Positions 2,060-22,520 of a stretch of DNA of 64,000 nt are shown piece by piece. Source of the DNA: Octopus vulgaris (Eukaryota); contig OX597814.1 of assembly GCA_951406725.2 (NCBI GenBank), positions 196,602,001 to 196,666,000 on the forward strand, written 5' to 3'. The notes below the pieces were generated by a model. The model was not told where the DNA came from. It did not search any database and worked only from the letters and a program-made list of their open reading frames with translations. The position numbers were made by a program, and so were the translations under genes. Each line of letters begins with the position of its first letter. Within the stretch, counting starts at the first letter, position 1.

Positions 2060-2611
<552 letters not shown>

Positions 2612-2785
2612 ATATACATATATAAATACAAAATGGCACAAGAATGCAAAACATCCGGGCAGCTAGATGATACAAAAATGGGACAACAAAACATCCAGAT
2701 AGACGATACAAACTAAACAAGGGCGGGTCATTCGAAGTTTTCTTTCCCCCGTCTTCTTTTTCTGTTGGACTTTACTCTTTCTCCT

Positions 2786-2820
2786 GTTTCAGAAGAAGTG
2801 CTTTACTCGAAACATAAAAC
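2786..2820 (+). ncRNA. Degenerate minimal hammerhead motif
   Basis: GTTT-CAGAAGA-AGTGCTTTACTC-GAAACAT-A-AAAC. Helix I is GTTT/AAAC; the core has U4>A and helices II/III are decayed. Same layout as the motifs at 54819 and 60856. Confidence 0.35.
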
Positions 2821-2935
2821 CACCTTTCTTTCCTTTCTTGAACGTTTGCTAATACTTTGCATGTAAATATACACATATACAGACACAGATACACACACAC
2901 GCGCACACACACACACACACACACATACACGCACA

Positions 2936-3024
<89 letters not shown>

Positions 3025-3046
3025 GCAATATAGATATATACATATG

Positions 3047-3100
<54 letters not shown>

Positions 3101-3107
<7 letters not shown>

Positions 3108-3599
3108 GTAAAAAGTGAAAAAACTACAGAAGGCTTGGTTTAAAAGGTTAAAAAATATATATTTGAGTCATTATGTCAGAAGAATGTTATAAATTTTTTC
3201 ATACAATGACATAGTTTTTGAAGAAATGACCGGTTTCGCGTTCAGCTTTTCAAATTTCTTGCATCGTTATGTTTACGTTGAGAAGAGTTATCGTTATGTT
3301 TACGTTGAGAATAGTTCCAGATAAGGGGAGGTAATAAGTGATTTATTCCGGTGTAATGGAGATAATCGCTTAAAGTTTTTTTGCCTTTCTTTTGGAGTGA
3401 ATTTCTCTGTATAAGTATGTTGGAATGGTTAAGTTTGAGCTTGTATTTTTCAATGAAGAATGTTTCCTTGTTTAGTCTAACTTCTGTTGGTGTCTGAAAA
3501 ACATTTATAACATTCTTCAGACATATTGACTCATATATATATATTTTTTAACCTTTTAAAACAAGCCTTCTGTAGTTTTTTCACTTTTTACTATTTTCT
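3101..3599 (-). mobile_element. Penelope-like element 3' end with inverted pseudo-LTR arms
   Basis: About 98-bp inverted arms at 3101-3198 and 3498-3599. The minus strand inside reads QTPTEVRLNKETFFIEKYKLKLN (GIY-YIG C-terminal RxxKExxFIxxxxPxLN-like), followed by a hammerhead motif. Confidence 0.75.
3221..3260 (-). ncRNA. Minimal type I hammerhead ribozyme, U3-A8 core variant
   Basis: AAGAAAU-UUGAAAA-GC(UGAAC)GC-GAA-ACCGGU-C-AUUUCUU: 7-bp helix I, palindromic helix III, GUC cleavage triplet. Confidence 0.7.
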
Positions 3600-3642
3600 A
3601 TATATATATTCAACCACGTGTTTTTACACACCAACTTTCTCA

Positions 3643-3714
<72 letters not shown>

Positions 3715-3790
3715 ATATTATATATATATAAGGCGGTGCCCCAGCATGGCCACTGCTCATGAGCTGAAACTAGAATCAATCAATCAATCA

Positions 3791-3850
<60 letters not shown>

Positions 3851-4242
3851 CATTCATATGCATTCCTATGTATGTATGTATGTGTGTATGGATTATAGAG
3901 AACACTGTCGAAAATTCACAATTTTCCCCAGAAAAATGGCTTCACAGGTTTACGACTAATTGGTATGAGATTTAATTTAACGTAACATCATATTTAATTA
4001 AAACAAGAAGCTACATTCCCCTATGCGTAATTATCGTCTATACAGGTGCTGAAATTTGCAAAGAAACAGCAAGGTAAGCAATGCTGGAACCTAACATCAG
4101 TTGTTCTATGAAACAACATTTTATTGTTTCAAATTAACTACAAAGTTATTATAGAAACGCAAGTGACTGCAAAATAGTTGGTTCGTCTATGAGGGAGATT
4201 TGGAAGAAATTCTTATCAAACGAATAATCATATTGGTATTTG

Positions 4243-4478
4243 CAGGCGGAAAGTTGGCAGAAACGTTAGTACGCCGGGCGAAATGCGTAGCCGTATTTCG
4301 TCTGCTGTTACTTTCTGAGTTCAAATTCCGCCGAGGTCGACTTTGCCTTTCGTCTTCGGGGTTGATGAATTAAGTACTAGTTACGCACTGGGGTCGATGT
4401 AATCGACTTAATCCGTTTGTCTGTCTTTGTTTGTCCCCTCTATGTTTAGCCCCTTGTGGGTAGTATCGAAATAAGTAT
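4243..4478 (+). mobile_element. SINE family B (tRNA-like head, Meta-domain-like centre), monomer
   Basis: GGCGG..GGCAGAAACGTTAG..GAGTTCAAATTCC (B box), followed by TTTGCCTTTC.TC.TTCGGGG..GAT.AATTAAGTAC.AG. Confidence 0.88.
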
Positions 4479-22478: not shown

Positions 22479-22520
22479 GATATAATATTTCGGAATATAA
22501 AAATTCCTTCTTCAGATATC
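22479..22520 (-). ncRNA. Minimal type I hammerhead motif
   Basis: GAUAU-CUGAAGA-A-GGAAU(UUUUAU)AUUCC-GAA-AUAU-U-AUAUC: 5-bp helix I, 5-bp helix II, palindromic helix III. Confidence 0.6.

What the first reader, a model, noticed from the sequence alone, without database searches (positions are those of the whole stretch)
3101..3599. Compact PLE 3' end: GIY-YIG tail, U3-A8 hammerhead and ~98-bp inverted arms in a TA tract
Seen: endonuclease C-terminal residues, then on the same strand a hammerhead with UUGAAAA replacing CUGANGA, all enclosed by inverted arms. Established: positions 3 and 8 form a tertiary Watson-Crick pair, so U3-A8 is a compensatory swap rather than simple decay. This ties the variant ribozyme directly to a Penelope-type ORF.
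Basis: partly seen in the sequence, partly recalled or inferred. Interest (0 to 1): 0.72.

Follow-up and report, generated by a model that had tools for sequence, protein, structure and literature searches.

The report
Penelope retrotransposon stub with U-A hammerhead
This is a broken, back-to-back double copy of a very common Penelope-like jumping gene whose tail carries a small hammerhead RNA motif, predicted to be self-cutting, with a swapped U-A core pair; the element type and the swap are both already in print, so it is a new example of a known thing.

Summary
Window 3101-3644 is one insertion of a high-copy Penelope-like element (PLE) into a (TA)n tract. It consists of two 5'-truncated copies lying head to head. 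The long copy (minus strand, 3493->3101) keeps the last 40 codons of the GIY-YIG endonuclease and the 3' UTR. The short copy (plus strand, 3495->3598) is the other "inverted arm", followed by a 35-bp PLE "tail".

The UTR holds a minimal type-I hammerhead motif (3260->3221) with core UUGAAAA. This core is family-wide (29 of 30 loci; 325 exact 33-mers in the genome). Two sister PLE families and a fourth motif share it, each with different, still-pairing stems.

Rfam models do not detect the motif, and the monomer fold is no better than shuffles. Helix III is a palindrome, as in dimer-dependent PLE hammerheads.

5' ends of 8 of 64 short copies fall at the predicted cut site (about 1 expected), but a sister family does not repeat this.

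U3-A8 hammerheads in PLEs were published in 2014 (Cercyon, Schistosoma), and this scan already noted them elsewhere in this genome. Verdict: real, a new member of a known kind; cutting is untested.

The parts
3046..3100 (.). (TA)n microsatellite, left flank of the insertion (target tract)
   Evidence: read directly; TA families
3101..3493 (-). Long 5'-truncated copy of PLE family A (393 nt): end of the RT-EN ORF plus the whole 3' UTR
   Evidence: 93-96% identical to copies elsewhere in the genome over query 107-498. Other copies continue upstream into the ORF.
3373..3493 (-). Last 40 codons of the GIY-YIG endonuclease (TPTEVRLNKETFFIEKYKLKLNHSNILIQRNSLQKKGKK). One extra A in the A-run near 3376-3382 shifts the frame past the family's stop, which would lie at 3372-3370.
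   Evidence: tblastn of P0001 to the window, 86% identity, E 5e-24; alignment A1; comparison with 29 other copies
3263..3316 (-). 27-nt tandem duplication just upstream of the hammerhead, present in all 30 copies aligned
   Evidence: D4 (96%); alignment
3221..3260 (-). Minimal type-I hammerhead motif with U3-A8 core: helix I 7 bp, helix II 2 bp (G10.1-C11.1, C-G), GAAA, palindrome ACCGGU as helix III, UC cleavage site. Predicted cut between 3228 and 3227.
   Evidence: descriptor hit; 0 hits in 200 shuffles; family and sister-family comparison; no Rfam hit
3101..3205 (-). Left inverted arm: the 3' terminal ~100 nt of the long copy
3495..3598 (+). Right inverted arm: a second copy of family A truncated to its last ~99-104 nt, head to head with the long copy
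   Evidence: its 3' terminal 33-mer is at window 3566-3598; length 99 in the reference coordinates (L146)
3599..3609 (+). TA spacer between the 3' end and the tail (11 nt here; TATATAT in 45 of the 48 tailed copies sampled)
3610..3644 (+). 35-bp PLE 'tail' (TCAACCACGTG...CTCACC), attached to the short copy only
   Evidence: The same tail follows 12 of 26 anchored copies and 48 of 100 sampled copies. In 15 head-to-head pairs it lies at exactly one end in 13, at neither in 2 and at both in 0.
3645..3720 (.). (TA)n microsatellite, right flank

Best explanation
Window 3101-3644 is one insertion of an abundant Penelope-like retrotransposon (family A) into a (TA)n tract, made of two 5'-truncated copies lying head to head, and the longer copy carries a minimal hammerhead motif with a U3-A8 core that is predicted to cut its RNA only as a dimer or with protein help.

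Shown here:
- The long copy keeps 40 endonuclease codons and the 3' UTR.
- The short copy is the last ~100 nt of the element plus a 35-bp tail.
- Long copies elsewhere encode an 801-aa RT-EN frame with a DKG motif, a CX4CxxC linker and a GIY-YIG domain.
- The UUGAAAA core is the normal state of the family and of two sister families, whose stems differ but still pair.

Inferred, from published biochemistry of another PLE:
- The element's enzyme nicks both strands of AT-rich DNA.
- It primes reverse transcription on each strand from one of two internal start sites. This would give 3' ends facing outward, a ragged junction in the middle and a tail at one end.

Predicted:
- Helix III (A-U and C-G around two nucleotides) cannot close as a hairpin.
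- Cutting after C3228 would therefore need the ACCGGU palindrome of a second RNA. This locus has only one hammerhead, so that RNA would have to come from another copy.
For: Family and structure:
- At least 102 genomic matches and 2543 first-look candidates.
- 1084 exact copies of the 3' terminal 33-mer.
- Other copies run on into an ORF.

Protein:
- P0001 hits RVT_1 weakly (22.5 bits, below the 29.6 cut-off).
- Relative P0002 passes RVT_1 (32.3 bits). Relative P0004 passes GIY-YIG (28.7 against 22.6).
- The window peptide aligns to their invariant R..KE..FI..KLN.

Hammerhead:
- 29 of 30 loci have TTGAAAA and 1 has CTGAAAA.
- 325 exact 33-mers and 0 in the reversed control; all 100 listed are TTGAAAA.
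- 0 descriptor hits in 200 shuffles.
- Families B and C and motif X share UUGANAA, GAAA, U-H and a palindromic helix III. They have four different Watson-Crick pairs at 10.2-11.2, always G10.1-C11.1, and N7 = A/U/C. 43 of 44 helix I cells pair, and the B subfamilies show an A-U to U-A swap.
- The homodimer cofold gives -13.3 kcal/mol against 2 x -3.0, with ACCGGU paired between strands.

Cut-site fossil record: of 100 copies sampled by their 3' end, 64 are 33-250 nt long. 8 of these start 123-125 nt from the end, and the predicted 3' product is 125 nt in the reference copy's coordinates. Expected 0.8-1.0; this is the best 3-nt window anywhere in the range.

Tail and pairs.

Literature:
- U3-A8 min-HHRs in Cercyon PLEs (PMC4209133).
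- Nicking and extension of both strands, two RT start sites equal to the tail, a protein-assisted hammerhead, and C3G/G8C rescue (PMC11167929, main text read).
- Inverted 5'-truncated copies and a one-sided tail (PMC8557442, passages read).
Against: - No Rfam hammerhead model matches, either in 1901 bases or in 91 bases at E up to 10.
- The 40-nt monomer folds no better than shuffles: z +0.75, with 149 of 200 shuffles at least as good.
- Helix II is only 2 bp, shorter than the 4-8 bp described for PLE minimal hammerheads.
- The unpaired base between positions 9 and 10.1 reported for many of them is absent.
- The 5'-end pile-up was not repeated in sister family C. Of 80 copies, 30 are 32-250 nt long and none is within 1 nt of the 57-nt product; the nearest are 59, 64, 64 and 65. 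That family has other hot spots unrelated to the motif, so family A's hot spot could also be unrelated. One of the 8 family A copies (L125) is a doubtful alignment.
- Published work found low in vitro activity of metazoan minimal hammerheads (PMC4209133).
- It also found no need for the hammerhead in in vitro insertion, and no RNA-seq ends at the cut site (PMC11167929).
- No direct-repeat pLTR was seen in the one long copy examined.
Confidence: 0.85

Rival explanations
1. The motif descends from a hammerhead but no longer cuts. It would be kept for another reason, such as a binding or folding site for the element's protein or RT, or simply because all copies are young.
For: No Rfam hit. Two-base-pair helix II, and a monomer fold not better than shuffles. 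No pile-up of 5' ends at the cut site in family C. Published low in vitro activity (PMC4209133) and dispensability for in vitro insertion (PMC11167929).
Against: Every core position that catalysis needs is kept in four stem-unrelated versions. The one free core position (N7) and H17 vary only within the allowed letters, and the stems covary. Family A 5' ends peak exactly at the predicted cut. One head-to-head junction (L106) has both arms starting at that nucleotide.
Confidence: 0.3
2. A miniature inverted-repeat DNA transposon (MITE) with ~100-bp terminal inverted repeats and a TA target duplication.
For: About 500 bp with long, 94% matching inverted ends, embedded in TA repeats.
Against: The interior is collinear with the coding end and 3' UTR of a retroelement. 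In other copies it runs on into an RT-EN ORF. Arm lengths in 15 other head-to-head pairs range from 33 to 656 nt, with no fixed unit. Only one other locus (L002) matches the query end to end, and it has a different junction. The arms are the 3' end of the retroelement, one with the PLE tail.
Confidence: 0.02
3. The hammerhead-like string is a chance match in an AT-rich UTR.
For: The descriptor was written after seeing the motif. The genome is AT-rich and the core is A/U-rich.
Against: 0 hits in 200 shuffles of 64 kb, both strands. The same architecture recurs in the 3' UTRs of sister families B and C, whose UTRs are otherwise unalignable, and in motif X.
Confidence: 0.03

Closest known systems
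U3-A8 minimal hammerheads of Cercyon PLEs in Schistosoma mansoni (Cervera and De la Pena 2014, PMC4209133; main text parts 1-2 of 4 read)
   Same: Type-I minimal hammerhead in the non-coding end of a Penelope-like element. U3-A8 replaces C3-G8. G10.1-C11.1 is kept. Helix III is very short and palindromic, implying action as a dimer. Most copies are dispersed single motifs in truncated elements, and some lie close together on opposite strands.
   Different: Different host phylum and PLE family. Helix II is 2 bp here, against the 7-8 bp described. Helix I is 7 bp, against 4-5. There is no unpaired base between positions 9 and 10.1. Activity of this version is untested.
C-terminal EN+ PLEs with a Zn-finger-like linker (Neptune / Nematis clades; Arkhipova 2006 as cited in Craig et al. 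2021, PMC8557442; passages and section 11 read)
   Same: Single RT-EN ORF, DKG motif, CX2-5CxxC linker (CGRPNCATC), C-terminal GIY-YIG, microsatellite insertion bias, heavy 5' truncation, an inverted 5'-truncated partner copy, a 30-40-bp tail at one end, and a hammerhead.
   Different: The clade was not resolved here, because no reference PLE set was at hand for a tree. It is not the Hydra clade: DKG is kept, whereas Hydra has DKT. The target here is (TA)n.
PAc, a Poseidon PLE of Anolis carolinensis, studied in vitro (Frangieh et al. 2024, PMC11167929; main text read)
   Same: It gives the mechanism that fits this anatomy: cleavage and extension of both DNA strands at AT-rich sites, two internal RT start sites whose interval is the genomic tail, and a hammerhead whose 3-8 pair can be swapped with partial rescue.
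   Different: Different clade and host. In vitro, both strands used the same start sites, whereas here 13 of 15 pairs carry the tail at exactly one end. PAc has a C3-G8 core. No RNA ends at the cut site were found there.
Metazoan non-LTR retrozymes (Li et al. 2026, bioRxiv 10.64898/2026.07.22.740005; abstract only)
   Same: Hammerhead-bearing sequence related to the non-coding end of PLEs.
   Different: Retrozymes are non-coding tandem repeats. This is a truncated autonomous element with a coding remnant and a single hammerhead.

Membership tests
Penelope-like elements (C-terminal EN+) | Reverse transcriptase domain with PLE motifs (for example DKG) | tested here: met
   Not in the window itself, but in the family's long copy P0001. 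ADKGNAVVIMD was read directly. RVT_1 scores 22.5 bits, below the cut-off. The 73%-identical relative P0002 passes RVT_1 at 32.3 against 29.6.
Penelope-like elements (C-terminal EN+) | C-terminal GIY-YIG endonuclease on the same ORF | tested here: met
   NIIYVIKCSGC..DYVGST..R..H..E..N in P0001. Relative P0004 passes Pfam GIY-YIG at 28.7 against 22.6. The window peptide aligns to the invariant C-terminal columns. P0001 and the window peptide alone get no Pfam GIY-YIG hit.
Penelope-like elements (C-terminal EN+) | Insertions 5'-truncated, often with an inverted 5'-truncated copy at the 5' side (inverted pseudo-LTR) | tested here: met
   The window structure. 15 head-to-head pairs among 100 sampled 3' ends. 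84 of 100 copies are shorter than about 650 nt.
Penelope-like elements (C-terminal EN+) | [quoted passage not shown] | tested here: met
   35-bp tail at 3610-3644. 48 of 100 copies carry it. It is one-sided in 13 of 15 pairs and never two-sided.
Penelope-like elements (C-terminal EN+) | Direct pseudo-LTRs from partial tandem copies | tested here: inconclusive
   None in the one long copy examined (L031 self-comparison). That copy may be 5'-truncated. The family's 5' end was not defined.
Neptune/Nematis-type PLEs | CX2-5CxxC Zn-finger-like linker between RT and EN | tested here: met
   KKCGRPNCATC in P0001 and in families B and C. By inspection only; no phylogeny was made.
Hammerhead ribozyme, PLE minimal type I (U3-A8 variant) | Core boxes (C/U)UGAN(G/A)A, GAAA and U-H in type-I order, with positions 3 and 8 able to pair | tested here: met
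   UUGAAAA ... GAAA ... UC. The canonical C3 and G8 letters themselves are not present.
Hammerhead ribozyme, PLE minimal type I (U3-A8 variant) | Helices I and II with G10.1-C11.1; short palindromic helix III | tested here: met
   Helix I 7 bp. Helix II G-C, C-G only (weak). ACCGGU palindrome. The dimer cofold pairs the palindrome between strands.
Hammerhead ribozyme, PLE minimal type I (U3-A8 variant) | [quoted passage not shown] | tested here: not met
   A9 is followed directly by G10.1 in families A, B, C and X. The paper lists this as a recurrent trait, not a requirement.
Hammerhead ribozyme, PLE minimal type I (U3-A8 variant) | Stems covary among relatives while the core stays fixed | tested here: met
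   Eight variants from four stem-unrelated versions. 43 of 44 helix I cells pair. There are four different pairs at 10.2-11.2 and an A-U/U-A swap within family B. This was parsed by my own script, because the MAFFT alignment was out of register.
Hammerhead ribozyme (Rfam families) | Match to a curated hammerhead covariance model | tested here: not met
   No hammerhead family at E up to 10 in 1901 bases or in 91 bases.
Hammerhead ribozyme | Site-specific self-cleavage | not testable with these tools
   Only indirect evidence: 8 of 64 short family A copies begin at the predicted cut, and family C does not repeat this.

The most novel reading that the evidence does not exclude
The genome keeps a fossil record of ribozyme action. 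Family A copies begin at the exact nucleotide after the predicted hammerhead cut about eight times more often than expected, and in one insertion both head-to-head arms start there. If so, the U3-A8 minimal hammerhead cuts in vivo, and the 125-127-nt cleaved 3' fragments are themselves reverse-transcribed and inserted. That would be the in vivo evidence for cleavage by an animal PLE hammerhead that RNA-seq in Anolis did not give. Together with the rule of one tail per head-to-head pair, it would mean that the two DNA strands are primed from different RT start sites.
Probability: 0.4. Interest if true: 0.5.

Novelty: new member of a known kind. Interest (0 to 1): 0.25.

Why it matters
On its own, little: this is one decayed insertion of a repeat present in more than a thousand copies. 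Both its architecture and its U3-A8 hammerhead core match published descriptions of Penelope-like elements.

It has two modest uses.
- A whole lineage of PLE families in one genome has fixed U-A at the 3-8 tertiary pair, while another repeat in the same genome keeps C-G. That makes a natural test bed for how the pair's identity affects activity.
- The many truncated copies allow a sequence-only test of whether minimal PLE hammerheads cut in vivo, by asking whether 5' ends fall at the cut site. That question is still open in the literature.

Tried and rejected
- **Rfam.** Searches of 2400-4300 and of 3195-3285 gave no hammerhead family. The hits were low-complexity miRNA look-alikes on TA/CA repeats and one E 7.1 sRNA match.
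- **RNA evidence.** No RNA holder was listed. All 24 runs are kept as contigs, and 'RNA' is a guess. Laying X1, X2, X4 and X6 gave contig pieces only. These cannot show ends or expression.
- **Replicate in family C.** The 5'-end test showed no pile-up at the 57-nt product, but only 30 of 80 copies fell in the informative range.
- **Family B.** It could not be tested this way, because its hammerhead lies at the very 3' end.
- **Covariation tool.** The MAFFT alignment of the eight hammerhead variants was out of register. I therefore did not use the count of structure pairs and parsed the stems by script.
- **Origin of the tail.** No match with up to 8 errors was found in the long copy L031 on either strand.
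- **Direct pLTR.** None in L031.
- **MITE reading.** Rejected; see the rival explanations.
- **C3-G8 ancestor within family A.** Only a single-change copy (L023, CTGAAAA) was seen among 30 loci. The 225 unlisted pattern matches could not be inspected.
- **Pfam on the window peptide alone.** No family found.

Full report
**What is in the sequence**

The stretch lies between two (TA)n tracts. On the minus strand, 3493->3101 is 93-96% identical to many other places in the same 2.8-Gb genome. There are 102 reported matches and 2543 first-look candidates, of which 40 were scored.

In 28 of the 30 loci fetched, the match begins at or after query position 103. Upstream of that point, most of them continue with a shared sequence that the window lacks. 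That shared sequence is an open reading frame.

The right-hand ~100 nt of the finding (3495-3598, plus strand) is a reverse-complement copy of the last ~100 nt of the same element. The "inverted arms" are therefore the 3' ends of two 5'-truncated copies that meet head to head at 3493/3495.

**The element**

One long natural copy (L031, taken) gives an 801-residue open frame, P0001. Read directly, it contains:
- an N-terminal NLS..LSKGLKF motif;
- ADKG (the DKG motif);
- YGLPKIHK;
- an RT core;
- a KKCGRPNCATC linker (CX4CxxC);
- NIIYVIKCSGC..DYVGST..R..H..E..N.

Pfam sees only a sub-threshold RVT_1 match in P0001 and nothing in the 101-residue window frame.

A search of the large protein collection with residues 590-775 found 3 proteins at E up to 0.001 among 252 candidates. 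P0002 (73% identical) passes RVT_1. P0004 (49%) passes GIY-YIG at 28.7 against 22.6 bits. P0003 hits nothing.

In the alignment of these proteins, the window peptide matches the invariant C-terminal columns R749, K752, E753, F756, I757, K763, L764 and N765. tblastn of P0001 on the whole window finds only 3493-3320 (86% identity, E 5e-24).

An extra A in an A-run carries the frame past the family's stop.

**The tail and the insertion unit**

After the short copy's end (CTATTTTC at 3598) come 11 nt of TA. Then follows a 35-bp sequence, TCAACCACGTG...CTCACC (3610-3644), and then the microsatellite again.

The same 35-mer follows the 3' end in 12 of 26 anchored loci. It also follows 48 of 100 copies sampled by their terminal 33-mer, and in 45 of those 48 it comes after exactly TATATAT.

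Among 15 head-to-head pairs in that sample, the tail is at one end in 13, at neither end in 2 and at both ends in 0. If each end carried it independently at 48%, 13 or more one-tailed pairs out of 15 would have a probability of about 0.004 (my arithmetic).

This matches two published descriptions:
- the PLE insertion, with an inverted 5'-truncated partner copy and a 30-40-bp tail often at one end only (Craig et al. 2021, PMC8557442, passages read);
- the biochemistry of the Anolis element PAc, which cleaves and extends both DNA strands at AT-rich sites and starts reverse transcription at two internal sites whose interval is the tail (Frangieh et al. 2024, PMC11167929, main text read).

The real unit is 3101-3644, not 3101-3599.

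**The hammerhead motif**

Minus 3260->3221 reads AAGAAAU UUGAAAA GC-UGAAC-GC GAAA CCGG U C AUUUCUU. It lies about 110 nt after the family's stop codon and 127 nt before the 3' end.

A descriptor of my own required the following:
- core CUGANGA or UUGANAA;
- helix II of at least 2 bp closed by G-C;
- GAAA;
- a self-complementary helix III insert;
- U-H;
- helix I of at least 5 bp.

It finds this site and one other in the window, and none in 200 dinucleotide shuffles of the whole window on both strands. I wrote the descriptor after seeing the motif, so the count is a guide, not a clean test.

Rfam does not detect a hammerhead here, in 1901 bases or in 91 bases at E up to 10. The monomer fold is no better than shuffles (z +0.75).

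Helix III would be A-U and C-G around two nucleotides, which cannot close as a hairpin. A homodimer cofold pairs ACCGGU between the strands and gives -13.3 kcal/mol, against -3.0 for each monomer. That is the dimer-dependent design described for PLE minimal hammerheads (PMC4209133).

**Is U3-A8 decay or design?**

Within the family it is the norm:
- 29 of 30 loci have TTGAAAA, and one (L023) has CTGAAAA.
- The 33-mer spanning core to cut site occurs 325 times exactly, with 0 in the reversed control. All 100 listed instances are TTGAAAA; the other 225 were not shown.

Because the copies are 93-96% alike, this alone says little about selection. Sister families say more.

Searching the genome with the endonuclease parts of P0004 and P0003 found two further very abundant PLE families:
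- family B: 753-aa frames, 56-58% identical to the query;
- family C: 784-aa frames, 50-52% identical.

Their 3' UTRs are long and unrelated in sequence to family A's. Yet each holds a minimal hammerhead with the same U3-A8 core:
- B: AAUUC UUGA(A/U/C)AA GUCA..UGAC GAAA (A)CCGG(U) UU GAAUU, at the very 3' end.
- C: CAG UUGAAAA GGUC..GACC GAAA CCGG UA CUG, about 57 nt from the end.
- A fourth motif beside a family C copy: CGUACG UUGACAA GAGG..CCUC GAAA CUGCAG UC CGUGCG.

A stem-by-stem parse of eight variants gives the following:
- 43 of 44 helix I cells are paired.
- G10.1-C11.1 is present in all eight.
- Four different Watson-Crick pairs occupy 10.2-11.2.
- The B subfamilies show an A-U to U-A double change.
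- N7 is A, U or C.
- H17 is C, U or A, never G.
- Helix III is palindromic in all eight.

That pattern fits a conserved hammerhead, and it shows the U-A pair is a lineage-wide state.

**Does it cut?**

Cleavage cannot be tested here. As an indirect test, I took the first 100 listed genomic places that hold the family's terminal 33-mer (1084 exact matches). I measured how far each copy extends from the 3' end, using one natural long copy as a ruler.

- 64 copies are 33-250 nt long.
- 8 of them end 123-125 nt from the 3' end, where the predicted 3' cleavage product is 125 nt on that ruler.
- The expectation is 0.8-1.0 (Poisson P about 1e-5 to 2e-6).
- This is the densest 3-nt window in the whole range.
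- Four copies start exactly at AUUUCUU (L098, L106, L136, L162). In L106 both head-to-head arms start there. One of the eight (L125) is a doubtful alignment.

Against this, truncation points are not uniform anyway. Lesser peaks lie at 97-101, 178-180 and 70-72.

The same test on family C did not repeat the result (1391 terminal matches, of which the first 80 listed were fetched). Only 30 copies are 32-250 nt long. None lies within 1 nt of the 57-nt product, and other hot spots dominate.

I read the family A peak as suggestive, not as proof.

Public runs gave no help. No run is on record as RNA, and all are kept as contigs.

**This locus**

The long copy's motif is intact and identical to the family majority. 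The short arm stops about 25 nt short of where a hammerhead would lie, so a transcript of this locus holds one hammerhead only. It would need a partner RNA from another copy.

The coding remnant is 40 codons with a frameshift. The insertion is dead as an element.

The two arms differ at about 6 of 100 positions, similar to the spread among copies. The insertion is therefore not recent.

**Comparison with what is known**

Cervera and De la Pena (2014) reported that Cercyon PLEs of Schistosoma mansoni carry minimal hammerheads with "U3-A8 instead of C3-G8". A descriptor with that core retrieved about 1300 hits, mostly single motifs in truncated elements (PMC4209133, read).

Frangieh et al. (2024) showed in a PLE hammerhead that single 3 or 8 changes kill activity and the double change partly restores it.

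Notes from this scan had already reached the same verdict on other pieces of this genome. I reached the paper before reading them.

What differs here is detail:
- a very short helix II;
- no bulged base before 10.1;
- a whole set of sister families fixed for U-A;
- another repeat in the same genome (203 matches at up to 2 mismatches) that keeps a canonical CUGAAGA core.

**Verdict**

The finding is real and correctly read. It is a new member of a known kind. The arms are an integration by-product, and cleavage is unproven.

Noticed in passing
window 22479-22520, minus strand: A second minimal hammerhead motif with a canonical core: GAUAU CUGAAGA A GGAAU..AUUCC GAAA UA UU AUAUC. It has the bulged base before 10.1 and lies between two inverted copies of another repeat. 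The motif occurs 203 times in the genome at up to 2 mismatches (0 in the reversed control), often as close minus/plus pairs like PLE footprints. C3-G8 and U3-A8 minimal hammerheads therefore coexist in this genome.
   Followed up: partly
L032-L051 (family B) and L052-L063 (family C), G000: Two further PLE families, with many copies giving identical scores and intact 753-aa and 784-aa frames. This suggests recent activity. About 16,500 first-look candidates for each query.
   Followed up: partly
L052, L058, L061 (family C 3' flanks): Family C also has an optional tail after TATATAT: CAACTCGTGTGTTCCTTTTCACCCTTATA. It starts like family A's tail (CAAC..CGTG), so the tail appears to be an element-encoded feature conserved between families.
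   Followed up: no
L173/L174 (G000:C1:32782102-32782223): A family C head-to-head pair whose two arms meet within the ACCGGU palindrome of the hammerhead. The junction may have formed by annealing of the two cDNAs at the palindrome rather than at the cut site.
   Followed up: no
L057:1115-1159: A fourth U3-A8 minimal hammerhead with unrelated stems and a CUGCAG palindrome, upstream of a truncated family C copy. Its parent element was not identified.
   Followed up: no
window 2440-2615: A tRNA-like SINE-type repeat on the minus strand (GGCGCAGGAGTGGCTGTGTGGTAAG...), flanked by TA and CA microsatellites. A related fragment lies at 3723-3765. No tRNA or Rfam test was run on it.
   Followed up: no
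window 3263-3316: A 27-nt tandem duplication directly upstream of the hammerhead, present in all 30 family A copies aligned. Its function, if any, is unknown.
   Followed up: no
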